A stretch of DNA of 64,000 nucleotides. Origin: Trichodelitschia bisporula (Eukaryota). Positions 2,827 to 48,178 of the stretch are shown in pieces (within the stretch, counting starts at the first letter, position 1; every line of letters starts with the position of its first letter). The notes under the pieces were generated by a model, which was not told the origin of the DNA, did not search any database, and saw only the letters and a program-made list of their open reading frames with translations. A program made the translations under genes and the position numbers. The DNA lies in NCBI GenBank assembly GCA_010356995.1, contig ML996708.1, positions 62,001 through 126,000 on the forward strand, written 5' to 3'.

Positions 2827-2926
2827 GGCTCGTGGCATGGCTCAGCGAGCATCAGCCGTGGATGAAGTAAATATGTATCTGGTCGCTTGCGGAACTTCGA
2901 ACATCAGCGGAGCACGAGACAGCCTA

Positions 2927-3026
2927 AGGGCTGGTCGAAAAAGTTAGTTGTGCCTCCCCTCTACCAGACTTTGGCAGAGGGCTAGAACTAGTCGCCGGAG
3001 GGGCATACCTTTTTTCGATGAGCCCT
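2927..3026. repeat. Imperfect multi-tier inverted repeat / stem-loop downstream of OMS1
   Basis: AGGGCT/AGCCCT, TCGAAAAA/TTTTTCGA and TGTGCCTC/GGGGCATA stems, plus an inner CCCTCT/AGAGGG hairpin. Confidence 0.6.
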
Positions 3027-5521
3027 GAGCCCTACCAGCGCAAGCATACCCAGTGAAAGCACCCGGATGCTCCACCAGAGCCTCACCTCTCCTCACCATA
3101 GGTCGCACCGCTGTCCCGCCAACTGCTCAACCACAACAACAAACAAAACCCATCCTCTCCATCCAACCCACGTGCCCTGCAGCACGAACGCCTGCACCCT
3201 GACTCGCCCTGCGCCGGGAAAAGCCCTGGAGAAAATATTTGCTGTACATTTACGCGCCCGCTCCGTGCAACGAAGCAGCCAGGCCCAGGCCGTCGCTCGG
3301 GTGTTCAACGCGCTGTCGGCCGTCGGCTGTCTTTCGTTCGCAGGCCTGCTCCTGCTCCCCGAACGAACCGTCAGCATCCGCGCAGGGATACGCCCGCTCG
3401 GGATTGACTGGTGCAGCAAGGAGCTTGCATCGTCGTACATAATATATTCTCCTTGCGCACGACAGCGGGAACGGGACAGGCGAGAGCTTACGAAAAAAAA
3501 TCAGTATCAAAGAAGGAATTCACAATCCCGTGGCAGATGTCGATTGTTGAGGAGACGAGGCTGGCCCAACCGCGACGCGGTCAGAATATGATGATGCAAA
3601 TGCATCCCGCCCCGCAGTATTCGCGGCCGGTGGCGCGGCGTTCTGGACCGGGGAGTGCCCGGCGCCGCGGGTGGGCTCCCATGTGGCTCGGATCGGGGTC
3701 GCGGTGGGCAGGGGGGGTTCGTTGGTGATGGTAGAGTGCAGGTTGATAGCGAGCTACAGTGCGGAGAGCAGAGAAAGTGGAGAGTGCATACTGTAGCAGT
3801 GGTTTAGTAGCTTCGCAAGTGCGCGGTGTGTGGTGTGGCAGGTGGTGAATGGTGGGATTGAGGGTGTGGGTTTGGGAAGTGTGCGGATCGTGGCTGGCGG
3901 GGGCAGTTTGGGAGCGGTGTAGGAGGGATTGACGAGTAGTTGCGACGTGCTTGACGTCGGCGCGTCGCGGCGAGCGATGGTGAATATCTGGGTCGAGCAT
4001 TACTGCATGGCTTCGCGGAGATAGAAAGTGAGCGACGAGAGCAAGCATACAGTGCCGATAGCCGAGGCCTGTCGCTTTGTTCATAACCCACCCAAATTTT
4101 TTTTTTCGCCCTCGCGCTTCATTCCGGATTTTTGACGCAATTTTGACAGCGCGGCGGGGGAAGCTGTGCGCGTCTTCCCCCGGCTCCGGTGGGCGATCCG
4201 GGAATTTAGGCGAGCCGCTGCGGCGTTTTGGCCTTCCTCGTTCCGCTGCCCTTCCCTGCGACAATATGCGTGGCGCTGTCACCGCCTGATGGGATGCGGT
4301 GATGGATGCAGGTGCCTGTTTCGTTAAGCTATCTGTTCTTGTTTTGATAAAGTCGTCGCGCTGAAGCCTTACTTCTTCTCGTCGTGCTCATGACTGTTTC
4401 CTCTGGCCCCCATGCCCAATGTGATGGTCACCCGGCCCTCCAGATACAGTAGTGCCTGAAACACGAAGTAGAGGGTTTCCGTGTCGATAGCGGGTAACGA
4501 TGGCGGGTGATGCGGGCGTCTATGCCGTTGAGCTGGGCGCAACGCAGCCTGTTTGGGCGGCAGGCTGGTCGCGCACCAATCGGGGCAAAGCCATGAGAGC
4601 TGACTGGCGGATCACTCAGCATACCTTTCATGATTGGGGTGTACTTTGGAGGGCTTGATGCCTTGGGCCTCCCGGTGGCTGGAGGTGAGGGGAGGGGAAG
4701 GAGAGGAGGGGAAGGAGAGGAGGGGAAGGAGAGGAGGGGCAAAGGGCGAGGACTTTCCAGTCGACTATTTTTGCCATCTCCATCGTTGTTGCCTCACCTT
4801 TTCATGCCACCTTTCATCAATCTCATTCCAACCGCGAAGCAACTCAACACCACGCCGATCCACCATCGTCACCTTCATCATCACGATGCTCATCAATGAA
4901 CTAGCGCAACCCATCATCCATCACTAAAACTATCTTCTCCCACTAGGTTGGCTCGGGCCAAGGCTGTCTCACCGTCTGCATTCTGCCCTTCCAGCCTGTC
5001 CTCCGTCCAATCACGCCCGTGTCGCACACCCCTCCCATCCACACTACCCCCCCCTCCCCTCCCTCTCCCCTCGCCCCCATCCACTCCCATCTGTCCTTCC
5101 AACCTTTTTCCGGCGAAAAAAAAAGAGAAGCGCAAGAAGCAGAAAACAAACAAGACTTCTTTCCGTTCCGCGCCAGGCTTCTCCCCTAAACTCAACATCA
5201 ACAGGAAAAGTGTCGGGTGGAGAGTCTCACCATCTGCCCTCCCCTCTCCTCCACTCACATTCCATCTATTCCCATCAACCTCCAGCTCCAACCCTTCCTT
5301 CCCCCCCCAAACACCCCGCCCTTGCCGCGCCCTTTCCACCCTTCTCGTCCACTCCCACCCCCTGGACCTTGCCTTGCCTCCGCTTGTCCCGTCCTTTCCA
5401 AAGGTGGAACCCGCGCCCACTTCGTGCTGATGCGACTTCTGGCTCGCGACCACTGAATCCATCAACATCCTCCGCCATCATCCGCATCCCCATCATCCTC
5501 CACCCCTCACATCATCAGAAA

Positions 5522-9082: not shown

Positions 9083-10099
9083 ATGTTCGTCGTATGGAAT
9101 TCACGAATGGACCAGGAAATCGAGGATGATTCCCAGCCGAATCCAAACGACTCTCTTTTCTCGAGACCCGACGGTGAGAATGCAGCCAGGGAAAACGACA
9201 CGAGCGAAACTGCAGCTTGCTATCCAGGCAAGAACGTCGGCAACGGCACGGATTCCCATTCCCAAAAGCGGAAACGGGACGCCTCGAACTTGGACTTTGA
9301 GAATGTCGATAGCAACACGGATTCCGACTCCCGAAAGCGAAAACGCGACGACTCGCACTTAGATCCTGAAGAGGACGCGCGAGTGGGAGCCGACCCAGAG
9401 GAATGGAGTGGAGGATACGATTACAGGGAAACCACTTCAGAGTCCTTCCTGGACTTCGAGGAATACACTGTGGACTTCGAAAAATACGCCGTAGACCTTG
9501 AACAAGACCACCAACACCTCGAGGAACACTACCGCCTGTTCTTCGAGGATGTAGAGCCAAGTTCGGAGGCGACGAGCCAGTCGGGCAACAAGAGTGTCCA
9601 GATTTCCGAGGACTCGGCAAGCCGACTCTTCGATACTGTGGAGCCCAAATTTGAAGCAACTCCTTTCGCCGCATCCGGTGAGCCTATCTCTTTGGGCGAT
9701 GTGTACAGTCGGTTCCGGGACGAGAAATGGGAGGGAAGAGATGCAGCGCTTAATGAGTTAAGGGAGAAAATACTGGCGAAGGATAAATACCCAAAGAACC
9801 CTGAGATGCAACGGGAAGAGCGGAAGTTAATCCGGCTGAAAGACCAGACGGGACGCGAGAGGAAGCGGCAGGGAAGAAGTATGTGGATACCCTGGAGCGG
9901 CTGGGGGTACCTGGATCCACAGGACATGACGCCGCTGGTGGATCCCAGCGATGCTGCGGCTACAACGAAAGATGCACTGGATGTGAAGAAGGGCGATTTC
10001 GAAGCCGCGAGGCTGGCTCAGAACGACAAAATTGCAGATCGGCTGGATACGAGGAAGGCTGAGAGCGCGGGCGCGAGTATGACGGAGCCTGTCGGGTAG
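9083..10099 (+). CDS. Hypothetical acidic protein with duplicated KRKRD NLS-like motif and 7-aa repeats
   Basis: 338-aa uninterrupted ORF with coding-like composition. Internal repeats TDSHSQKRKRD/TDSDSRKRKRD and DFEEYTV/DFEKYAV. Confidence 0.7.
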   Translation: MFVVWNSRMDQEIEDDSQPNPNDSLFSRPDGENAARENDTSETAACYPGKNVGNGTDSHSQKRKRDASNLDFENVDSNTDSDSRKRKRDDSHLDPEEDARVGADPEEWSGGYDYRETTSESFLDFEEYTVDFEKYAVDLEQDHQHLEEHYRLFFEDVEPSSEATSQSGNKSVQISEDSASRLFDTVEPKFEATPFAASGEPISLGDVYSRFRDEKWEGRDAALNELREKILAKDKYPKNPEMQREERKLIRLKDQTGRERKRQGRSMWIPWSGWGYLDPQDMTPLVDPSDAAATTKDALDVKKGDFEAARLAQNDKIADRLDTRKAESAGASMTEPVG

Positions 10100-10483
10100 T
10101 GTTAGGTTAGGCTTTGCAAGTTGTGTGCGAGGCAAACTGATTTGCCGCCCTGCTGTACAGTACTACCTGAATGCGGAACTCCAATCGTGATGCCCGAAGC
10201 GCGCCGAAATAGAGCGCGTCATGCAGTCTCTTACTGCATTTGGGACGGAAGCTTTGGCGCATTCCTCTCAGCCTTGTAATTGGCAGCTTCGTGGGCATAC
10301 CTTTGACATCCCCACGCTCAGCCACCACCTTGCAAGGACAGGGAGCTGCACCTCGCATTCTTCTGCTGCGGACAAGGCAGATCGCGAGTATCCTCGTTTA
10401 AAATATCCACGACACTTAAACCGACATGTCTCTCGCTCCTAGCCTGATGCCCTCCGACGACTTGTTCCGTTTTTACGGCCACG

Positions 10484-12732
10484 ATGAACGCGACACCGCA
10501 CCCAACGCAAGATGATGAGAGTTCTATCGTCCACAGAAACTCAGCCAGACGACCCAGGAGATCAAGAAATGCCGAAGCCAGTCGCCTTCTCGTGGGCTCC
10601 ACCGACTTTGAACTCAATGAACGACCCGTGCGCTCGGCTAACTCTGGGACCGATGCACTGCCTGCGAACTCTGCCAGCTCTGAAAGCGAGCGACCATCAA
10701 TGAGCCTCGATGGATCCGAGATCAAGCCAAAGAAACGTATCTCCAGCTCCGGAGCAGTTGTTTTGTTGGCCTGTTGTGTTATTACCCTCCCGATGGTGAC
10801 CATCTCCGGGGCTCTTCTAGGTCTGATCCTCAAACATCGCATCGCTACAAGTACTCTGCGATTTCATAATACGGAGTTGAACTCCGACCCAAGCTCATCT
10901 TCTTACTATATTGCCTTCCACTCAAGCACCCTCGTTGCTTTGGCTTCGTGGTCGAGTACCATCGCCCCATTTCTGGTTGGCTTTGCCATCACTCTGGTCT
11001 CTTACCCGGTCGCGCACGATATTTTACCTACCTCGAAGTTGAGGGATCCTCCCGCAGCCGAGCTTCTATCGCCATATCAGTTCTCTATGTTGGTGCGCAT
11101 GTTGCTGAGCAGTGGGCCTGTTTCAATGTTTCACTGGGGGGCGTCTGTTGGCTGGTCCAAAGAAAAGCAACCCAGGGCCCTAAAGACAATGGCTGCCCAT
11201 CTGGCTTTCGGCTTGTTTCTCAGGTTCGTCATGCGAGGAGTCCTCAGCTAAGGCTAATAGTGCGGGGTAGTTGGGTTATCATCATCTCCGATACTTGGTT
11301 TCACTTCGCGACTACTACCATTGAGTGCCAGCGGGACAATCCGTCTTCAGCCTGGTGGAAAGGCTATCCCGGGGGATGGAACGGCAGTTTTGCTATTCGC
11401 CCTGAGTGTAGCAACATTGCTACAGCAAAAACGGAGGGCTGTACGCTCGCCAAAACAGATAATGGAGTTCTTGCCCTCGTCCCCGGGAGGGTCGCTGCGA
11501 ACCTACTCTACAAACCCGATGGGTACCGGCCCGCTGGGGGCGAAGTTGAGGTCTCGACGACGAAAGCAGACATCATCGGGGAGGTGATTGTCGACAAATC
11601 TACCGGGGGCAAAGTTAAACGCGCGACGAGGAGAGATCTGGAACTCCCACCGTTCCTTCACTGGAACGCGAGTATGGATAGCTGGGTGACCAAAAATATG
11701 CCAATTGAAATGGCCTATCTCGCAGTGGCCTCTGGAGCCAGCACTCTGGAAATCGACTCTAATTCTATTCCCGATGGAACCAGCCCCGACAAGCGTAATT
11801 ACCTTGAGTATCATGCTCACTCCTGGGGCGTGGTGACGACCTGCATCAATGTCACTTCCCAGTGCCAGAATACAACAGCGGCGCCCAGTATAAACGGTGT
11901 AGGGCAGAACTTCCGATGCAATTTCCCCTTCGAAGGCGGCAATGACTTCTGGCGAATGAACTATTACACGAACTCCAGTCTTTTGGATACCGGGACAGAT
12001 GATGTTGCTACCAATCCCTACTATTTTGCCGCCTTCATCCCAGCCAACCCGATCGTGTCCGCGCCCCACTCATCGGCTGTCATAAATTGCAGCGTGGAGG
12101 TTTATGACGTGGAATTCAGGACCAGCAGGGTCGACGGCCTTCTCCGTGACAGCTGGACAGGAAGCTTCCAAAGCAATCGCACCCTCAGCAATACCACCGT
12201 GACCAACATCATCAAAGGTTCGCAGCAGTTCACGTCCTTTGGTAACGCTTTGTTTATACAAGCGGCCGGCGCTGAAAGCTTCTTCGGGACTGGACGTTTT
12301 GAAAGCATTGCCCTCGCCTATTCCAAGACGGCTCTTGCCGTCGCTGCTGATGCCTTCAGAACAGTTCCCCCGCGTGATCTCCGCTACATTGAAGAAGTTG
12401 CGGTCGTTCGCGTGAGCATCCCCGCCCTCGCTTTTCTTCTTGCCGGAAATCTTTCGTTTGTGGCTTACGGCATCGTGCTCACTTACATGGCGTACAAGCC
12501 TCACATCATGGATGGCGATACGGGCGAGGTCCTGGCCCGACTCAGTGTCCCAGCACTCGCTGCAACACTGTTTGGACAGGCACGCACGCGTGAGCCTGTA
12601 GACGAGGTGGAGGAGATGTTTGACGAACGGTATGGAATGGAAGGGCCCCTAGTGAAGTTTAACCGTACATCAGAGGGAGGTTGGGCGTTTGAAGCTGTGT
12701 CTCAAGAAGAGATATCATGGGAGGCTCATTAG
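10484..12732 (+). CDS. Uncharacterised multi-pass membrane protein with a large N-glycosylated luminal/extracellular domain
   Basis: Two ORFs joined in frame by intron 11224-11270 (GTTCGT...GCTAAT...TAG). N-terminal TM helices, SDTWFHFATT motif, many NxS/T sites, C-terminal TM followed by ARLSVPALAATLF. Confidence 0.8.
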
Positions 12733-13795
12733 TTCATGCTGGGTTTGCTGAGTGAGATTTGTACGGCGCGATGTTGATTATTGTACGGGAAGGCTGAGTT
12801 GATGATGTTTTCTGTATTTGTTCTGCAACTCATGCATCACGGTAGTGTCCCCATTTCCAAGATCGGTTTGACTGCACCCGATTAGTGATCTCTACGGGCC
12901 TTCACGCATGTATGTGATGATGTCTCAAGCTCACCATCTCTCCGACATCCTCGAGGAAGACCCCCCGCAGCTTCATCCCTCACCGCCACGGAGAGCGGAG
13001 GGATGGTACGGTAAAGCGAACTGCAGCAATGAGGTTGTGGTTGTCATGAAGTTTGCGAGTCAAAGGCGAGGGGGAAGTTGGGGACGCTTTCCCCGCAGCA
13101 TTGATGAGCTGGTGGGGCTGTGACTTTCCATGAATCGCAGGTCTTACTACGTGGAATACCGTCTCGGCATTAGGGGAACAAACATGAGTAGAACCAAAAA
13201 TGTCATGGCCGGCCCGCCAGGTATTTTACCGGACAATGATGGCCACAGCATTCTCGAGTGGTCCTTGGTATGGTACGTCACCGTCAGCAAAAGCATGGAG
13301 GCATCCTCAACCTCACAACATAGCAAAGACGAAGAAATGCAACCTCCATTCTCCAAATCGCCTTTTGCCTCGAGCGGTAGGGCCACTCTGAGCACCCCGA
13401 TGTCGCACTCTTGGAAGCCACGTGTACTCATACCGCGAGAACCCTCTTAAACGTCAGATTCCCTCGCCTTATCGTGCTGGGCAATCACGTGCGTGTCGCC
13501 AGCCTCCTTCTCAGCTCGGTGAAGGGAGTACGGAGGCGGAGCTCAGCCGCACTTCGACGTTGGTACTTAAGGTATATACGACACTAGAGACGCACTTCAC
13601 GAACCATACTCTGAGTATAAGTGCCACGACACTTCGCTCGCATCGAAAAGTAGCGGAAACATCCAATTCCAACACAGAAATCAACACCAGACGAAGCAAC
13701 GCGGGCTTCTCTACCTACAAGAACAGATCTCAGACGTCGACAGGCCTACAGTTTACGTAGTACATTGCAGTACAAGATAGACGGGTTTGGTGATT

Positions 13796-22553: not shown

Positions 22554-23367
22554 CTAATACCCGCCCCTGACTGGAAAGGGGGGTTAGCTGCGGAACGAAA
22601 AGCTTAGGTGGAGTTATTTTCATGTACATACTGGTCATCAATAGTTGATTCCGCTGACAGAGCGCCGTTCGTGCCGGGCAGTGCTCGTCGAACTTGTCCG
22701 TCCAGGCTTCGACAATCCGGATCGCGTGATGTTTCCTAACCTCGTTTTCGAGACCTTGGATTTGGTCTTCCGGGAAGGTCTTGAACACCCTCTTAGCGAC
22801 TTCCAACTTATTCCGATAAATCTCGTCGAATTTGTCCGTGAAATTTTTCATGACATCATCCGTCAGGACTTCTAACACGTCCCTCCTGAGACCTGCCGCT
22901 AGCATATCGGTAAGGTCTTTGATGCCCTTATTTACGACGCTGTTGATGATCTTATCCCTGAGATTTTTTTGGCGCGTACTCCAGTGATAGAGGAGCTCGT
23001 CAATGAACTCGTCGGACATTTGTCCCAAGGCATCCGCTGGCGCTTCCATGAGGACCTCGAGCATCGCATTTTTAGCCTCCTCGTACTTAGTTCGAAAATC
23101 GTCGTCCAGCTCGTCCATGAACCTTTCCATGACATCATATGTCAGGACTTTCTCAACGCGTCTCCTGAGGATCGTCGCCAGCACATCGGTGACCTCTGTG
23201 ATGCGCTTGTTCACGAAGATGTTGATAATCTCATCCTTGAGCTTTTCCTTTCGAATATCCCAGAGGCATTTGACGAGCTCAATTCTGAACTTTTCAGTCT
23301 TTTGTTGAACCTGATCCGCGATATCCTTCGGCGTGCCATCGGGCCCGGGCAAAGGCGGTTCAGCCAT
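22554..23367 (-). CDS. Hypothetical helical protein with an internal domain duplication
   Basis: ATG 23367 and a long ORF. Probable terminal intron 22571-22631 (GTATGT...GCTAAC...CAG) gives ...LLMTIRGGY*. Confidence 0.65.
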
Positions 23368-26466: not shown

Positions 26467-28738
26467 AGCGGAGACAATAGGGGGAAGTAAATGCCGTGCA
26501 GGCTACAAGAAACGAATAATCTGTAAGATGCGATACAAGAGCGGTAAGATGCGAAGGAATGCGAAGAAATGGGGAACTTAGGGTCCTGAGGGAGAAGGGA
26601 GCTTTATCGAGGGCAGAGGTGGGGAGTGGAGACGGTGGATGGAGACGGAGGAGAGCAGAACTGAGGGTACTTTTGACGTAAGGCCCACGTCCGAGGACCA
26701 AACAAAGCTCCCTCGGGAGTTCCTACCACAGTACCTCGCAGCGTAGGGACGTTGGAGTGCAAGCTGTGGAATGTGCGATTGGAGCACTTGCTGAACAGGG
26801 CAAGCTCTCACCATGCCTCTAGATAGCTAAGACCGCAGGAGTGGGGCCGAACAGAGCGTCACCGTTCCAGCCGGCGACATCACTTCGGAAGATGTTGAGC
26901 AGACCCTGCCGATACTGGGCCAGACTGTCGGCGTACAGCTTGTCCTTCAGGCCGCCGATATACCGCGTCTGGTAGGGATGCAGGCGCACAAGAAGCCGAT
27001 GAAACGATACCATACACAGAAAGGTCGCTCAGGCGCCCTGCGCTTCCCGTTTCGTACCGCTCGAGGTGATTGGCGGGTACACCAGATGCGCCTTCAGCTG
27101 TGGTGTTTGTATCCTGCCACGAGAACAAAGGCTCCGACGTGCAGGTTGTGATACCTGCGTCAAGGCTGAAGCTAGTGGCCGACGAGCACCCGGCGTCCCA
27201 TCACCACTCAGGTTGGATTCCAGACCGCGCGTCGTCTAATCGGATGCGAGACATTTCTGGAGTATTTTTGAGAGTCGATCCGCAGGGTCCAGGCCGCCCG
27301 TTGGAGGCCCAGACGGCCAACGGCATCGATGGCTCATGGACGCCGCATTCAGCCTGACGTTTTCTGTCCGATTGGGACATGGCGCTAATCCTTGTATCAG
27401 CTGGCTAGGGTCGGGGTATATTCCAACGACAGCGAAGAGTAGCGGTGCATCTCGCTGCACCATCTTGCTTGCTTATTGTCGGGGGTTTGCTTGCAACAAC
27501 GTCGTCTGTGACCTTCGCGGAAGCTCACAACCAATCGATAAGTTCACAAAGCTTGCGGTTTTGAATAAAAAGCGAGTTCTTTGCTGACTCTTAGCAGAAT
27601 CGAGCAAATGTACGAACGTCCGGTGGTATGATTTGCCTCAGGCGAAGATGCTTTCCCATTAATGACGAAGTTGGCATGAGTTATCTGACTGCCCGCCTTC
27701 CTCCTTCGCCTCGGACGCGTGATGAGCACACATCAGTCGATGCGGAACTGCTGAAAGCCTGACCTCTGTCAACTCAACCGGACGATCCAGGGCTTGAAGC
27801 AAGCTGGCTTGGCCTGGTATACCCAAGTGTCGAAGGTACTCTCGAGTAGCGGCTTTTAGAACTAGCAGCTCCGCATCAACTGATCCGTTCTCGTCACGCG
27901 TTCGAGGCAAAGGAGAGAGGACATCAGTCCGACAACTCATCCTAACTTCGTCATTGACAGGTTATGACTCCGGGCCCATGAATTGTCGATGACCGAGCGG
28001 TCAAGCTTTTCTCTCAAGTTCCACCACCAAAGGGATGCCTGTCGCTCGGGAAACATCGTCGCCGCAGCATCCTCTCCGATTACGCGAGGACGGGTCGCGC
28101 GGCAAGATCTCGATCGCCGCATTCGGGGCCCTAAGAGCCGAGATGCACCGCATCGACGGTTTCAATGAACGGTACTTGCGTCTCACGGTACTGTCTTTTC
28201 CGCGCGGGCAAGTTAATATCAGTTTAGGGTTCGGCAGGGTGGGATGCTAGCTGGGTTCAGGTTTGGGAAGCGCGGGAGGAAGGGGTCTTTGGAGGGTAGG
28301 GAGTTGGCCTTGGGGCAACAGGGCGTTGGATGTGTTAAACCTCTGTGTTTTGCAAGCTCTGACGATTCTGGATTACGGTCAGTCTTACTTCGTTTCTTCA
28401 GAGGCCGTCCCTACCGACGACTGGCACTCACAGCAGCCCGCACGAGAGCAGTCGTCAGCCACACGTCAGCATGGATTGTGACTAGTCAGCCTACGCTCGT
28501 ATGTACGCAACCAACGCCCTCTGCCTTTACATACCGTGTTATCCGACCGTGCCTAGCTGACCACATATGCCATCCCACCCATCATTATCCAGCCGAAATG
28601 CGATCCTGATATACGATCCCGCAATGCAAACGCCGCCCGCCATCCAGCCGATCCGATTATGCCGCCCAATGCCCGGGTAATCCTTCAACGCCCGCAATGC
28701 CGAAAACACATAAACCAGCCCAACGCCCCCACGAAAGC

Positions 28739-39087: not shown

Positions 39088-39173
39088 GGGCGTGTGGTCT
39101 AGGGGTATGATTTTCGCTTCGCATGAAATGCGGAACCTGTGAAAGGTCGAGGGTTCAATTCCCTCCGCGTCCA
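39088..39173 (+). tRNA. tRNA-Ala(CGC) with a 14-nt intron
   Basis: Acceptor stem GGGCGTG/CGCGTCC with G3:U70 and discriminator A. Anticodon CGC at 39120-39122. Intron 39124-39137 after position 37. T-arm GAGGG-TTCAATT-CCCTC. T6 Pol III terminator at 39176-39181. Confidence 0.95.
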
Positions 39174-41391: not shown

Positions 41392-42344
41392 CTAAGACTT
41401 GCGGAAGTCTACAATGTCAGCACCGCTTCCTTAAAGCATGGACAGTATCGCTTACCGTTCAGAACCGGGTAGATCAGCTCAAAGGCCTGGTAGATCTCCT
41501 CACGAACTTTCGCGCCAGTCAGGACAATCTTGCCGCTGACGAAGATGAGAAGGACGATCTTCGGCTTCATCATGCGATAGATGAGACCAGGGAAGAGCTC
41601 GGGCTCATAGCTGGAGAAAGTGTGATGCTTGGAAGCCAGGCCCTCAAGACGAATCGGGAACTTGATGTCACACGAGCCAACGATGTTCTGGATCTTGAAG
41701 TCGGTGAACTTGGCGTTGAAACCAAGCTTCTGGATGATGCGGGCGTACTTGCGCGAGGCAAGCTTCGAGTCGTCCTCGGACTTGGCACCGGTGACAACCA
41801 TCTTGCCAGACGCGAAGATGAGAGCAGTCGTCTTAGGGTCGCGGATACGCATGATGACAGCCGCAAAACGCTGTGTTGTCAGCAATCAGACGCCCATGAC
41901 GGCAATCAGCGTACCTTGGGGTTGTACTCGGCATTACGAGCGTGAAGCGCAATGGTCTTCAGGTCGAGACGGCAGTCAAGGTTCACGGTAGCGACAAGAT
42001 TCCTTGAAACCCGTTAAGCACATAGGTTCGCCGTGTATGCGCGACAGTGCAAACTTACTGCAGCGTCGGAACGATACCGCTGACCGACTGGGCCGACCCA
42101 GGAGTCGCAGCAGGAGTGGCTGGAGCAACGGCGTTGGCTGTGCCAATGTTAGCCTTATCGCAACAAACTCTCTCCCTCAGTGTCGCGCACCAGCCTGCAT
42201 CTGACCATCCTTCTCGGACGGAGGCGTAACCTCAGCCGCGCCACCGGGGTAGGACAGAGAGTGAGGCGCCGTAAAGGCTTTCGCCTGCGCAGCGGTGGAC
42301 GGGTGAGTGGTGAGAGTGAGTCCCTCCATGTTGATCGCAGCCAT
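41392..42344 (-). CDS. SPT15: TATA-binding protein
   Basis: Multi-exon gene reading SGIVPTLQ^[29 protein letters not shown]^[23 protein letters not shown]...[13 protein letters not shown]...DFRKS*. In-frame ATGs at 42344 and 42329. Confidence 0.97.
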
Positions 42345-44888
42345 GTTCTGGTGTCTTGTTCAGAGAGTCGAAGAGGACTACCGCTTCCGAAAGGTCAATC
42401 TGCCAGGAGAGGGTTCGTTAGAATCAGGGTTCTCTTCAGGTGGCAACGATGAGGGTCCGATTCAGAGTCAACGACGAAAACGACGATGTGCGTTGTCGGT
42501 CGAAGGCAATCAATCGGGTGACCAGTATCGCGCGCTTCGTAACTGGGTCCGCGTACCGTGCAGTGGGAGATGAACAAGTGAATGTCTCCCTCACAGCCGT
42601 TGCCCGAGAAATTGGTATGGAAACGGCAAGTGCGCGACGCAACACCTCGAGTATGCGCTCTTCAGAGATGAACTTCGCGACAACGATGAATGGTATGACG
42701 AGATTTCTTTGGAATTGAATTCGGTGTGCGCGCGATGGCAGCTGCACGACCCGATCGCTCGAAGACTATTGTTGGTATCCACGGACTGCTAATGACCGGC
42801 GACGACAATAGCAGAAAGAACGTGTGGTACGAGATTGGGATTTGCTTGTCGGCTTACACAGAAGAATTCTGTCGAAAGGGAATGGCTTGCACGTCGTAAA
42901 CACGCGCGCGACTACTGAAGTGGAGTCGACAGGACCTCCTGCTCTGGCTGTCGTCGGGTCCGCAAACGTCCTGCGCTTTTGGCAGAGAGAAGCTCTTTTT
43001 CGTTTTCAAAAATCAGCGATTACTGCAGTGAAGCAGTGCTCTCTGAATGCGACGAATTTCGGAAGAGGAGGTTATGTGGGGGGGATGGGAGAATCGGCAG
43101 AGTGGTGGGTGTGGGGGTTGTTTGTGGTTGTCGGAACAGCCAGGCTTTTTGAGGAGGGGGAGCGAGAGAAATTGGAACGGCGGGACTCCCTGGCTATTTA
43201 TCTTCCGTGACTCACCCCATTCACCAGCCGCCGCACGGACCGCCCCTCGCCCCCCCCGCGCCTCCTGAACCCACCCGGTGAATGTGCCAAGCCGACGCTA
43301 ACACTCCCACTAACCAATTGCGGCAGCTTCGAGCCTCTTCGATCGAATCGAACACGCACGCTATTCGACAAAGCTGACAGGGACTCCCTGTGTCTCCCTG
43401 GTCACTCCCTCCCAGGCTGCAACACAACCCATCAACCCGGCAAAGTGCGAACTGGGAACCGTGTCCTTTACGTGTGTGTGTGCGAGAGACGAAGCAAATG
43501 AGGGCAAAAAGCGTAGGGAAGAGGTTGAAGAGAGAGGGCATGAAGAAGGGCTGCGCAAGACGAACGCGACGAAACGGAAGAGTGCGTTCATCTCATTTAT
43601 CTACTGCGCATCTTTTATGTACCGGTATGCTGTACTCAGCCTTGTCTCCCCCGGTCGCATCCATCATCCCCGCTTCTTTATCGCGCCCCCGCCGCCCTGC
43701 TTTTTGGGCCTCAAAACGTGTGTCTCACGTCAGGCCCTCCCTCTGGTCAATTTTGCGCAGGCTCGCAGTGAGCGACTCATCGCGCTTCGCACCACTGGCA
43801 CAGGTTAAATAGTCCCGCCACCCTCTGTCCGTGACTGCTTTTGAAAGGGTACCGTAGCTGCTACGTGAGCTTTGACATGTCCTTTTTTTCAAGGGGCTCG
43901 ACTGCAGCGATGACTGAGGGTCGTTTCGACCGCCTTCAGTGCTTCCTTTCAACCTTTGCCGCGCGCAAACTCAAAGTACGTATGTCAGTGACGACGACAG
44001 CCAACATCAAAATAAAAATTGTGTGATCCGACAGGCCATTTTCGCCTCACAAATGCAAACTACACGTGACGGCGCCACGCAGCGGATTACAGTCGCCGGA
44101 CTGGGGTACCGATGGTTCGATTGCCGACTCGATGGAGTGTCGGTTGAAAGTCACTACCGTGATCTTCACCGCTGAAGGGTTTTCGTTACTTCATCAGCGC
44201 GAGGCTCGGACGGCGTCGCCAACGCTGCAACTTACCGAAGAAGTCACTTTTTGCCCTTTCCGCATAACCGGAGGCAAGATCGGTCATTCCGCAGTCTCCG
44301 CGCCTCGGCAGGCGTCTTCCGATCGCCACGGCATCTGCACTCGGGGGTGCCGTCAAACGCACAGTAACAAACACTGCATGCCAGCATCGTGATTCGACAT
44401 CTCGAACCACACCCCGGTGAACCACTCACCAGCTCCCAAATAGCCCTCCTAAATCCGCCCAATTTGTTGCCATGGCGCTGACAATTGATCGCCGCCAGGT
44501 CCTGGGTTGGCCGCTGGCGGGCACGCGAGTGACAAGCACCCGGCGACTGTAGCCTGCAACCCGGACGTCGGCTTGCAGCGTCAAAACTTGATGGCCGGCA
44601 ATCGGAGTGCATCGAGAGGCTTGGCGGGCAAGCTTGCCTTTCATCGTGCAGCGGCCTTTTTATCCTTTACTGGCGGAGCCGCGGGGCTGGGTGACCCCGC
44701 CATACGTCATCGGAACGTCTTTGCCGTAGCGTGAGGGAGGGATTGGTGCTGTTTACTGTGTGGTACGCTGGAGGCTACCGGGACTGGTACGCAACGTTCC
44801 AACGTAGTGTCTTTGTAGTTGGGCTCCGCTCAGGTTGTACCATCGTACCTCCGCGATATTTGTCCCCTCAATGCAGCCGAGTACGCGG

Positions 44889-45102
44889 TGGAAGGAAAGT
44901 GTCATACATAGCCCCCTCTATACTGCAGGGCCTACAGGTCAACGATGCCTATACGGCCCCAACAACGGATAGAGGTATACAAACTCGGTCTGGGGATGCA
45001 TCTTAATGCTGGGACTACACCTAACAAGTCCATTATATATCTTTGCGTTGTTGCAAGCTGATATCCTTTCCCGGGCTCAGAGTGTATGACCCTTTCCTTC
45101 CA
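44889..45102. repeat. 20-bp inverted repeat (19/20 identity) with ~175-bp spacer
   Basis: TGGAAGGAAAGTGTCATACA (44889-44908) pairs with TGTATGACCCTTTCCTTCCA (45083-45102). Confidence 0.85.
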
Positions 45103-45405
45103 ACAGCGTGCGGGTTAGGGTTTCCCTTGAGGCTTTGGCCCCGATCGCGGTACCTCCTGGTACCTGGACGATACATCAACTACGGTACCGTACAGAGGTA
45201 CATACTGGATGATGCATCATTGACGGTACAGCGGTACTACGTACTGGGTGGTTCATGAATCACACTACACAGTCACTGGCCAACCGAACGCCGTATCCCA
45301 CTCAGATCAAAGACCGTACCAACGTACCAATATGTGTAAATCTCTCAACACGGCACAGTAAACCATGACTCAAAGATAAGAGAAGTTTAACTTACGGAGT
45401 CCGTG

Positions 45406-45485
45406 AAGGGCCAGCCATCGCAAGGGTCCAGCCTACGATGAGTCCGACGTCGGTAAGGGTCCAGCCGACGATGTCGGACGTCGGC
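45406..45485. repeat. Degenerate tandem repeat (2 copies of ~32 bp plus a partial copy) containing the palindrome CCGACGTCGG
   Basis: AAGGG(T)CCAGCC starts at 45406, 45422 and 45455. Confidence 0.8.
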
Positions 45486-45567
45486 AAACGTTCCGCCTAC
45501 GTGATACAGCAGCCTTTGCAAAGTACATAAACCCCCATCCCCTCCCCCCTCTCTCCCTTTCTCTTCC

Positions 45568-45768
45568 TCACGGCGTGTGCGTGAAAATGTGCGGGCGTCT
45601 GAAGGGCGGTGGACTGTCAGTCCTTCCAGGGGGTTGGTGTGCCAGTGTGAGTATCGACGCTGTTCGAACAGAACACCGTCTACACTTTCACGGGAACACC
45701 AACCCCCTGGAAGGACTGTCGGTCTTCCGCCCTTCAGATGCCAGCGCACCTTCACGCCCACGCCATGA
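45568..45768. ncRNA. Long ungapped hairpin (98-bp arms, 5-nt loop); candidate microRNA-like RNA precursor or foldback element
   Basis: Position i pairs with 91336-i throughout. Manual count on the + strand gives 80 Watson-Crick pairs, 5 G:U pairs and 13 mismatches. Perfect 23-bp core at 45618-45640/45696-45718. The hairpin is certain; its function is inferred. Confidence 0.6.
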
Positions 45769-48178
45769 CACATTGTGAGTTTGTTCCCTTTGCAAGTCGG
45801 AGAACGGGGGCTCCACTAACGGCTTGAGCATCGACCTTCACGCCTTCGAGACGCTGCCCGGTTTGACACTTACATCTCGATGCGAACAGGGGAAGGTGCG
45901 TTGTGATTTCAGGAAGGAACATACTTACTGGAGAAAGAGTCTTATGGCAAGATTCAAAGGAACTTCAGTGTGAGTTTGAAAGGAGGATACGTGGCAAACA
46001 TTGCGCTTAGACACGAATGGGTTCGCTGCTGATCTTTCTTGTTCTCCGTCTTTTTACGTACCTTCAACATGCCCTCGTTGTTCTGCACACGTACGATGGT
46101 GATGCTCCCATTACACCCCTCGGCACCATGCAACGGATATGGCGCCTATGATACTGACAGCACAACAGGGTGGCTTCCGGCGACCAAGACCCGAGTTTAC
46201 ACGCGAGAGAGTCAAAGCTAGAGGCATATCCGTCGCCGGAGGAACAACAAATCGAGTTGTGGAACCGCCCCGTTTATAAAATAGATTGTCAGAGGAGCAG
46301 CACCCAACCGGACACCGACAATGCCGCAGTGTGACTCTGATCCTCACACTCTTTACCTGGAGTTTTGTCTATCTCGTCAGTCCAGAGGATCTGATCCCAT
46401 CGATCTGATATCCTGGACGTCAGATCAATTGGACCAGATCAATTGGACAGACGAGACAGAAAAAAACTTCATGCGAACATTGAAAGAAATGGATCGCACA
46501 TCGACCAGATCTGAACCGGGTACCGCCCAGCTACTCCCTCAGCCATCCGGAAGTTGAACTCTGGCCCCGAAAATGAACCACTGATTTCCAGTAGATTCTT
46601 CCAAAGAGTTTGATTATGATAGGCTTGATGACGACCAGTTTGAACTGACAGCGAGAGCAAGTCGTCGAAGTACCACCAGGAACCGACCACTCCATCCGGG
46701 ACGTTGAAGCATTACCAGTCGTGTGCCGCCGTAAAGCATGGAACTGACCGTTGCGCTCCAGCCGTTCCTCCTGTCCATTATTCCTTGGGTTCAGTTTGCC
46801 TCGCAACAGCACGTCGAGGCGTAATCTCGTAGCGCTTCCTTGTTACTGGAGTATCCATTATTCCATAGAGGCAAAATCAGTTCCGAACTGCCACCTCCAT
46901 TCTCCGGGCAAGATTCGAGAGGTTTACAGCTACTTTTTATCTGCTCACATTTAGCCCTTGGATACCTCGACTTGTGCATTCTGGATAAGCGTTGTCCGAT
47001 TAGGACAGCTGTTGGCTGGAGCTGGGACGCGAAATGGAAACGGCTACACAAATAACCTAAAGATCATCGGCCTGATCTTCTGCCAGGTGAGGATTTGGTT
47101 CAGGGCATCGAGCGCCCTCCCGCAGACAATGATATGCGGACCGTAGTCTGGAAATGGCTCCATCGGAATACCGTGTAGGATCTTGCGTGTCTAACACTCT
47201 TGACATCAGCATCTCTCTACTAACGATGGAAGCTCAACGCACCTTTCCGCACCGCGCTTCCCATCGCCCCAAGCAGCCGGTTTAGCACTTTTGAATCAGG
47301 CCCTCCAACATCAGAACCAATCCACCCCACCAACCGAAAGCCAAAATCACCCAGCGTGCGAAACAGCAAACGTCGTACGGTTATCTCGGGTCTCCCCGCC
47401 AGCTGAAAGATCCCGGCATCGTTCAGCTGCCCGTGCACCTCCCCTCCCGCAGCGATCATCAGGGCCCAACGTCACCCTAGACGACGTCAACCCTTCCCCA
47501 TTTCCCTTCCACTTCTACACCAGCATCCTCACAACCCTCTCCAAACCATCGGGCCTCAACCCCTCCTCATCCAGCTCTACCCTCCATCTTCGCATCAAAA
47601 CCCCTCACTTCTCACTCAACACATGCAACATCTCAGCCCCCCCCCCCCTCCATGCACGCCCCCCGTCATAGGTCAAGTGCGCAACGCCGCACCCCAGACG
47701 GGCCTCATCGTTCACGCCGCACCGTGAGGCTGAAGGCTGAACCTTACCGTACACCGCGCTTTCCTCCGTCGTCGCACACGCTACACGACCCTTCTGCGCG
47801 CTAGAATGGCGCTGTGCGAGGCCAAAGGCTGGGCGGAAATTTTCTAACTAGCCTGCAAAAGAATAGTACCCGGCTTTTGATGAGGTCTTTGCTGGGTACG
47901 AGGCAGAGATTATTGAGTGGGGCGGCTATGATTTTTGGGTACCCCGCCGCGGGGCGCAGGTCCAGACCCTCTGCCGCTGCGATGCCCCGCTGAAGGCTGA
48001 AGCTGAATGAGCGGCTGAGGGGCACGTTGCCGGATTTGGCTTTCAGCGCAGTGGGGTCGGGATGGATGGGAGATGCACTATGGGGTATATATGCTGACGA
48101 TGAGGGTGGGGCTGGATTTGGGTTTGGAAGTGCAAAGCTGCTATCATCGCCATCTTAAGTAGTTTTGAAGTTCACAAT

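What the first reader, a model, noticed from the sequence alone, without database searches (positions are those of the whole stretch)
45524..45820. Ungapped ~200-nt hairpin with a perfect 23-bp core, behind a Pol II-like promoter: candidate milRNA precursor gene
Seen: 45568-45665 pairs without any indel to 45671-45768 around the loop GAACA (80 WC, 5 G:U, 13 mismatches). CAGTCCTTCCAGGGGGTTGGTGT (45618-45640) is perfectly complementary to 45696-45718, and a second perfect 12-bp block lies at 45598-45609/45727-45738. Just upstream are a TATA-like TACATAAA (45524-45531) and a CT-rich tract (45532-45569). Just downstream are a splice donor GTGAGT (45775) and a branch ACTAAC (45815), though no clean nearby YAG acceptor. 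No credible protein is encoded. Known: filamentous fungi produce Dicer/Argonaute-dependent microRNA-like RNAs from long imperfect hairpins. Inference: scattered single mismatches around a small-RNA-sized perfect core, with no gaps, fit a selected RNA fold better than a decaying duplication. G:U counts (5 on +, 4 on -) do not settle the strand.
Basis: partly seen in the sequence, partly recalled or inferred. Interest (0 to 1): 0.8.

Follow-up and report, generated by a model that had tools for sequence, protein, structure and literature searches.

The report
Transcribed fold-back hairpin among transposon relics
A fungus carries a single old inverted duplication that is copied into a non-coding RNA able to fold into a 98-base-pair hairpin; it could feed the RNA-silencing machinery, but nothing yet shows it is a selected microRNA-like gene rather than one of several decaying fold-backs in this genome.

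Summary
The hairpin is real, exactly as described (98-bp arms, 80 WC/5 G:U/13 mismatches, z -17), single-copy in a 25.8-Mb Dothideomycete genome that has Dicer- and Argonaute-like genes. So strand and transcription are supported. Selection is not: G:U vs A:C is 5:4, a 23-bp perfect run (p 0.08) and no indel (p 0.20) are compatible with neutral decay, the centre is a spacer-less palindrome plus a 5-nt duplication, the core has no near-perfect target, and the locus sits between three transposon relics. Five similar fold-backs (one enclosing copia RT, one a dispersed loop-less repeat) were found in the window and in repeat-rich loci. Best reading: an old DNA fold-back (template-switch inversion) at the 5' end of a lncRNA, probably an incidental Dicer substrate; a selected milRNA stays possible (~20%). 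Small-RNA data and close relatives were not available.

The parts
45524..45531 (+). TATA-like TACATAAA
   Evidence: with the CT tract the only such pair on either strand of the window (post hoc motif); function not shown
45532..45569 (+). 38-nt pyrimidine (CT) tract abutting the hairpin foot
45568..45665 (+). 5' arm of the fold-back (98 nt)
   Evidence: RNA contig of X4 holds 45585-45610
45618..45640 (+). 5' half of the perfect 23-bp block
   Evidence: no other match with up to 3 mismatches in the genome
45660..45671 (.). perfect 12-bp central palindrome; GAACA is tandemly doubled at 45666-45675
45671..45768 (+). 3' arm of the fold-back (98 nt)
   Evidence: RNA contigs of X3 and X4 hold 45713 onward
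45696..45718 (+). 3' half of the perfect 23-bp block
45611..45720 (+). 8-nt direct repeat (45611-45618 and 45713-45720); 102 nt between them are skipped in one RNA contig, no GT..AG in any register: reverse-transcriptase slip across the folded stem
   Evidence: table 5 (X4 only, absent from DNA runs X1, X2)
45765..45820 (+). ATG ACA CAT T followed by GTGAGT donor (45775) and ACTAAC branch (45815): looks like a mini first exon/intron of a decayed gene; not spliced in the RNA contigs
   Evidence: sequence; contigs run through unspliced; origin is inference
45585..46098 (+). exon 1 (RNA-supported part) of a spliced non-coding transcript that carries the hairpin
   Evidence: records 15 (X3) and 18 (X4); longest ORFs 63 and 78 aa, no coding signal
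46099..46168 (+). GT..AG intron of that transcript; donor lies in the solo-LTR-like relic
   Evidence: (joint in X3 and X4)
44889..45102 (.). MITE-like relic, 20-bp terminal inverted repeats (19/20), 6 other copies at 72-78%
45422..45484 (.). two 33-bp tandem copies just upstream of the TATA-like box
45875..46115 (+). ~240-bp dispersed relic with TG..CA-like ends (solo-LTR-like, by eye), 5 other places at 67-77%
46363..46465 (.). second, smaller loop-less ungapped fold-back; 1 other copy at 87% that is part of a 231-nt palindrome

Best explanation
An old fold-back inversion of local DNA (template switch at the short palindrome 45660-45671 during replication or break repair) made a ~200-nt near-spacer-less palindrome directly behind a TATA/CT-type promoter-like stretch in a transposon-relic-rich intergenic block. 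The arms have since drifted ~18% apart with no sign of RNA-level constraint. The locus is read by Pol II on the + strand into a spliced non-coding RNA whose 5' part folds into a 98-bp imperfect stem. Because the genome has Dicer- and Argonaute-like genes, the stem is probably cut into imprecise hairpin-derived small RNAs that have no near-perfect target except their own locus: an incidental endogenous hairpin RNA, raw material for a milRNA rather than a proven one. Shown: palindrome, single copy, relic neighbours, + strand spliced transcript with both arms, RNAi gene homologues. Inferred: template-switch origin, the start site, neutrality, dicing.
For: Centre is a perfect 12-bp palindrome with GAACA doubled. 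Transition mismatches split 5 G:U: 4 A:C, no strand bias; likelihood ratio 8.7 for 50% against an assumed 85% G:U share (the 85% is my assumption). P(perfect run >=23 | 18 mismatches in 98) = 0.079, 0.39 that one of the six fold-backs examined does as well. Neighbouring relic families give 33 indels per 366 substitutions over 11 pairwise alignments, so P(no indel | 18 substitutions) = 0.20. Five comparable fold-backs: window 27661-27955 (92-bp ungapped arms, 18 mismatches, z -13, copia RT piece in the loop), window 46363-46465, L010, L021, L024, all with balanced G:U/A:C. Relic families on both sides. Core has no match with <=3 mismatches elsewhere in 25.8 Mb. RNA contigs of X3 and X4 with the 46099-46168 intron and the 45610->45713 slip. 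Three Piwi and six RNase III domain matches, four of them in two tandem pairs. Template switching creates whole hairpins in one event (PMC10710096, abstract) and homogenises arms (PMC8604942, abstract), which can give perfect blocks without selection.
Against: This hairpin has the longest perfect run of the six (23 vs 7-13 bp) and no gap; the two p-values multiply to about 0.016 if taken as independent, so a selected core is not excluded. It is the only one known to be transcribed, and the only TATA-like + CT-tract pair of the window abuts it. Fold-backs are not everywhere: 0 of 4 arbitrary 10-kb stretches had one; the comparators come from loci picked for repeats. Compensatory changes are invisible without an outgroup, so a balanced G:U/A:C count of 9 is weak. 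No source sequence of the arm was found, so the origin is inferred.
Confidence: 0.55

Rival explanations
1. Selected milRNA gene: a Pol II pri-milRNA, perhaps born by template switching, whose 23-bp block yields one Dicer/Argonaute-dependent small RNA that represses a partly complementary target.
For: + strand spliced non-coding transcript with both arms; promoter-like motif flush with the stem foot; single unbranched stem, z -17; longest perfect run of six fold-backs; RNAi genes present; intergenic, no Rfam match. Pol II is linked to some Neurospora milRNA loci (PMC3547838, abstract).
Against: No G:U bias; run length and lack of indels each within neutral range; 55 nt lie between the halves of the core whereas the best-supported fungal loci have under 20 (PMC9757828 section 11); no near-perfect target; same design recurs in transposon debris.
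Confidence: 0.2
2. Last recognisable copy of a loop-less palindromic MITE/fold-back transposon that landed at an old promoter.
For: Length and whole-length complementarity resemble the dispersed palindrome family of 46363-46465/L010; the block has collected three other relics.
Against: No second copy by DNA, pattern or translated searches; the terminal 24-mer has 1 extra 3-mismatch hit that does not extend (23-26 of 74 identical beyond it) and has no inverted repeat; no exact TSD of 4-10 nt; no similarity to the other five fold-backs. The same 4.4-kb search found the neighbours' copies down to 67%.
Confidence: 0.15
3. Killer-type hairpin (Mu killer-like): inverted duplication of a transposon or gene fragment, kept because its siRNAs silence(d) the parent.
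For: The genome makes such structures from copia elements: 27661-27955 encloses an RT fragment (PF07727, E 5e-6); 3 of 10 fetched RT loci hold inverted duplications (L024, L025, L030). ATG-donor-branch signals behind the 3' arm suggest the 5' end of a decayed gene.
Against: No parent for this hairpin: no hit in 10 copia loci, in the genome, among 1.84 billion protein representatives for the one frame tested, in the Atlas for the 63-aa ORF or Pfam; no coding signal or homologue downstream.
Confidence: 0.1

Closest known systems
Fungal mi/milRNA hairpin loci (Johnson et al. 2022, PMC9757828; seen: abstract, introduction, search passages, section 11)
   Same: Intergenic, transcribed, unbranched imperfect stem, no Rfam or CDS overlap, Dicer/AGO homologues in the genome.
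   Different: No small-RNA evidence; stem far longer, 55 nt between core halves against under 20 in tier 1-2 loci; conservation unknown; would be tier 3 at best.
Neurospora crassa milR-1 to -4 (Yang et al. 2013, PMC3547838; seen: abstract and section list)
   Same: Hairpin precursor in a filamentous ascomycete.
   Different: The major Neurospora milRNAs are Pol III products; this RNA is spliced, so Pol II-type, like the less abundant class.
Template-switch-born hairpins / de novo miRNAs (Monttinen et al. 2023, PMC10710096; seen: abstract and opening paragraphs)
   Same: Lineage-specific hairpin made in one DNA event inside a transcribed region; over 6,000 such hairpins gave at least 18 miRNAs, so most stay non-functional.
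   Different: Described in primates, much shorter stems; origin there shown with ancestral sequences, here only inferred from the centre.
Mu killer of maize (PMC3440606; seen: abstract) and Ac killers (bioRxiv 2020.01.07.897926; seen: search listing only)
   Same: Natural inverted duplication read by a host promoter into a hairpin RNA.
   Different: Those are kb-long and match an active transposon; this one is 98 bp with no parent found. The hairpin at 27661-27955 is the closer analogue.
Falsitrons (Schulz et al. 2021, PMC8240250; seen: search passages)
   Same: The 45610->45713 joint: stable hairpin flanked by 8-nt direct repeats, no canonical splice sites, seen in cDNA only.
   Different: Explains the joint, not the locus; not checked by direct RNA sequencing here.
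Whole-length palindromic MITEs / fold-back elements (class recalled, no call)
   Same: Short, non-coding, self-complementary end to end.
   Different: No TSD, no second copy.

Membership tests
fungal mi/milRNA locus | transcribed precursor holding both arms | tested here: met
   spliced + strand contigs in X3 and X4 (one sample, one study); both arms joined in X4
fungal mi/milRNA locus | [quoted passage not shown] | tested here: met
   criterion from PMC9757828
fungal mi/milRNA locus | no overlap with CDS, Rfam RNA or transposon | tested here: inconclusive
   no Rfam (8), no CDS signal (24, 72), single copy (7), but relics 107 nt downstream and 466 nt upstream (20, 71) and origin unknown
fungal mi/milRNA locus | short inter-duplex distance (<20 nt in tier 1-2 loci) | tested here: not met
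   55 nt (45641-45695) if the 23-bp block is the duplex; a duplex nearer the loop is not excluded
fungal mi/milRNA locus | stranded, discrete 19-25-nt reads from the stem | not testable with these tools
   only long-RNA contigs among the 4 runs listed
fungal mi/milRNA locus | Dicer/Argonaute dependence | not testable with these tools
   genes present: 3 Piwi matches, 2 tandem RNase III pairs
fungal mi/milRNA locus | conservation in related species | tested here: inconclusive
   no relatives held; 0 hits in metagenomes; nearest relatives of the neighbouring protein are 56-61% identical, too far for intergenic DNA
fungal mi/milRNA locus | complementary target | tested here: inconclusive
   no site with <=3 mismatches to the 23-mer on either strand; looser pairing not tested
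MITE / fold-back transposon | terminal inverted repeats, no coding capacity | tested here: met
MITE / fold-back transposon | dispersed copies | tested here: not met
   1 copy; the search gives lower bounds
MITE / fold-back transposon | target-site duplication | tested here: not met
   no exact 4-10-nt direct repeat within 3 nt of the ends; could have decayed
killer-type hairpin locus (Mu killer) | arms homologous to a transposon or gene elsewhere | tested here: not met
killer-type hairpin locus (Mu killer) | silences the parent in trans | not testable with these tools
   needs genetics

The most novel reading that the evidence does not exclude
This fungus turns recurrent fold-back inversions into a set of endogenous hairpin-RNA genes: some folded from copia retroelements act as natural Mu-killer-type silencers (27661-27955, L030), and this one, captured at a TATA/CT promoter and given an intron by a solo LTR, is a young Pol II milRNA gene born by template switching, a route so far shown for primates and not found for fungi in my searches.
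Probability: 0.15. Interest if true: 0.65.

Novelty: new member of a known kind. Interest (0 to 1): 0.3.

Why it matters
A 2022 re-analysis of fungal hairpin RNAs says that whether long hairpin RNAs trigger RNAi naturally still needs exploring and that fewer than half of reported milRNA loci pass basic standards (PMC9757828). A single-copy, demonstrably transcribed 98-bp natural hairpin with a look-alike transposon-derived hairpin 18 kb away is a clean test pair for how milRNA genes and anti-transposon hairpins arise. If it is only drifting debris, it is a caution: hairpin strength, a perfect core and a promoter-like motif do not make a milRNA.

Tried and rejected
Lack of RNA cover: bin 45274-45564 has depth 0 in X4 and 1.7 in X3, and no listed contig covers 45611-45712 in either RNA run; contigs cannot show a start or absence, so this is not used to place the start site or to claim Dicer cropping. 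Contig depths (118 and 46.5 here, about 10,000-13,000 and 1,950 on TBP) are not used to rank expression. No run was on record as RNA; X3/X4 were judged RNA from their spliced joints. Assembly artefact rejected: arms differ at 18 of 98 places and DNA contigs show no other letters (X1/X2 may be the assembly's own source). Protein-coding reading rejected; no frame shows a clear synonymous excess between arms (best 7 of 16 changed codons). RIP-type decay rejected: 9 of 18 mismatches are transversions. Pseudogene downstream (46285-47226) not supported. A by-eye likeness of one frame to gypsy integrase and of another to a helicase motif (both recalled) found no support. The loose-end contig was traced to a copy of the solo-LTR-like family. 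Conservation: metagenome pattern scan 0 hits; anchor-protein scan 115 pattern hits, 0 confirmed. A profile search of the whole genome and a larger background sample were not available, so copy number rests on BLAST, pattern and translated searches and the background on 40 kb. Paper searches (0 papers; 15 of 21 listed, none on small RNAs by title) gave nothing on this locus. No supplements were read.

Full report
Observation. The stem folds at -156.2 kcal/mol, z -17.2, on + and -153.0, z -16.6, on -; flanks add no further long stem. It is the longest of the window's inverted repeats. New detail: 45660-45671 is a perfect 12-bp palindrome and GAACA is doubled, so the structure reads as a spacer-less palindrome with a 5-nt central duplication as well as it reads as a 5-nt loop.

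Setting. The window is G000:C22:62001-126000 of a 25.8-Mb, 44-contig genome. The DUF2235 gene to the right is 100% identical to an NCBI record labelled Trichodelitschia bisporula; the next relatives are 56-61% identical, among them Verruconis and Tothia (Dothideomycetes placement recalled and consistent with the listing). The hairpin lies in the 5-kb gap between the TBP gene (identified from its translation, family recalled) and that gene. A search with the whole gap found 13 other places: a 214-bp MITE-like element at 44889-45102 with 20-bp terminal repeats (6 copies, 72-78%), a ~240-bp solo-LTR-like element at 45875-46115 (6 matches at 5 places, 67-77%) and a small fold-back at 46363-46465 (1 copy, 87%). 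The hairpin itself matched only itself by DNA, by its core with up to 3 mismatches, and in all three translated + strand frames, which cover the six frames of an arm. Its terminal 24-mer gave 1 extra 3-mismatch hit that does not extend. These searches give lower bounds.

Transcription. Four runs hold the region. X3 and X4 (one sample) lack the five TBP introns and two DUF2235 introns that X1 and X2 keep, so they are RNA. Further right the same contig carries a - strand intron (47191-47242), so it merges two convergent transcripts. In X4 the contig continues through a joint 45610->45713 into 45585-45610. That joint skips 102 nt between two copies of an 8-nt repeat, has no GT..AG or CT..AC in any of 9 registers and is absent from both DNA runs: the pattern of a reverse-transcriptase slip over a stable hairpin (PMC8240250, passages). 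It shows that both arms were on one molecule and suggests the RNA was folded. The spliced + RNA has only 43-78-aa ORFs, no codon signal and no homologues for the frames tested. The start site is not shown; the 5'-most supported base lies 16 nt behind the CT tract, and the TATA-like + CT-tract pair is the only one in the window (defined post hoc). The genome has 3 Piwi matches and 6 RNase III matches, four in two tandem pairs as in Dicers.

Is the fold selected? With 18 mismatches placed at random in 98 pairs a perfect run of 23 or more arises in 7.9% of 200,000 trials. Eleven pairwise alignments of the neighbouring relic families give 33 indels per 366 substitutions, so 18 substitutions without an indel has probability 0.20. 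Transition mismatches are 5 G:U to 4 A:C; selection on a + strand RNA should favour G:U (likelihood ratio 8.7 for neutrality against an assumed 85%). Five other fold-backs were measured the same way: window 27661-27955 (92-bp ungapped arms, 18 mismatches, z -13, single copy) whose loop is a copia reverse-transcriptase fragment (PF07727, E 5e-6), window 46363-46465, L010 (231 nt), L021 (179 nt) and L024 (129 nt, at the end of a copia-locus segment shared with L032). All have balanced G:U/A:C. Self-inverted repeats were seen in 6 of 22 non-window loci, which were picked for repeats (4 further loci of that scan overlap the window and were dropped), and in 0 of 4 arbitrary 10-kb stretches. Against neutrality: this hairpin has the longest run of the six (23 vs 7-13; 0.39 for one of six to do so), the two p-values multiply to about 0.016, and compensatory changes cannot be seen without an outgroup. 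Template switching can also homogenise arms without selection (PMC8604942, abstract).

Mechanism. Most likely (0.55) a template-switch fold-back at the central palindrome, now drifting, sits at the 5' end of a spliced Pol II non-coding RNA and is an incidental Dicer substrate with no near-perfect target but itself. Origin, start site, neutrality and dicing are inferred. ATG-ACA-CAT-T followed by donor and branch signals just behind the 3' arm hints that the folded DNA was the 5' end of a now decayed gene, but nothing downstream confirms a gene. Rivals: selected milRNA (0.2), lone palindromic MITE (0.15; no copies, no TSD), killer-type hairpin (0.1; no parent found, though the genome makes such structures from copia elements).

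Comparison. It works like a fungal hairpin-RNA locus but cannot be filed as a milRNA: small RNAs, Dicer dependence and conservation were untestable, and the 55 nt between the core halves exceeds the under-20 nt of the best-supported loci (PMC9757828). The major Neurospora milRNAs are Pol III products (PMC3547838, abstract), so a Pol II promoter is not diagnostic. Birth of hairpins by template switching, few of which become miRNAs, is documented in primates (PMC10710096, abstract); Mu killer is the model for silencing fold-backs (PMC3440606, abstract). Transposon-derived palindromic siRNA loci of budding yeasts are recalled, not read (one search listed 1 paper, not opened). Searches listed nothing on this locus or on small RNAs of this genus. 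Conservation scans of metagenomes were empty.

Verdict. Real, transcribed, single-copy hairpin; a new member of a known kind; interest 0.3. It is a good candidate for a small-RNA experiment, best run together with the copia-derived hairpin at 27661-27955.

Noticed in passing
window 27661-27955: Second ungapped hairpin (92-bp arms, 74 WC, z -13, single copy) enclosing a copia RT fragment (PF07727 positions 112-148); by eye the arms continue the RT frame (motif recalled, not confirmed by tblastx). Possible natural killer-type hairpin; transcription not tested.
   Followed up: partly
L030 981-1507 / 2092-2615; L024 1-373 / 2966-3343 and 2917-3045; L025 360-444 / 665-748: 3 of 10 fetched copia RT loci hold inverted duplications (93-95% arms); in L030 527-bp arms bracket the RT fragment. 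L024 and L030 lie 13-20 kb from an Argonaute-like gene on C24.
   Followed up: partly
window 46363-46465; L010 1430-1660; L021 1629-1807: Loop-less palindromes of 103-231 nt; the first two belong to one dispersed family, the third abuts a copy of the MITE-like family.
   Followed up: partly
window 43304-45037 (+): Spliced RNA (intron 43976-44034) running away from the TBP gene, ORFs up to 104 aa, no Pfam match or codon signal; ends inside the MITE-like relic in the contigs. Likely lncRNA from a bidirectional promoter.
   Followed up: partly
window 46169-47640 (-): A - strand RNA with intron 47191-47242, divergent from the DUF2235 gene, overlaps the hairpin transcript as a possible natural antisense pair; spliced ORF of 116 aa not searched.
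   Followed up: partly
window 45422-45484: Two 33-bp tandem copies (87%) with CGACGTCG palindromes 40 nt upstream of the TATA-like box.
   Followed up: no
window 22793-22984 / 23072-23263 and 41509-41550 / 41782-41823: Direct repeats: a 192-nt pair at 70% (not examined) and the internal repeat of the TBP gene.
   Followed up: no
window 39088-39173 (+): tRNA gene (Rfam RF00005, 46 bits).
   Followed up: no
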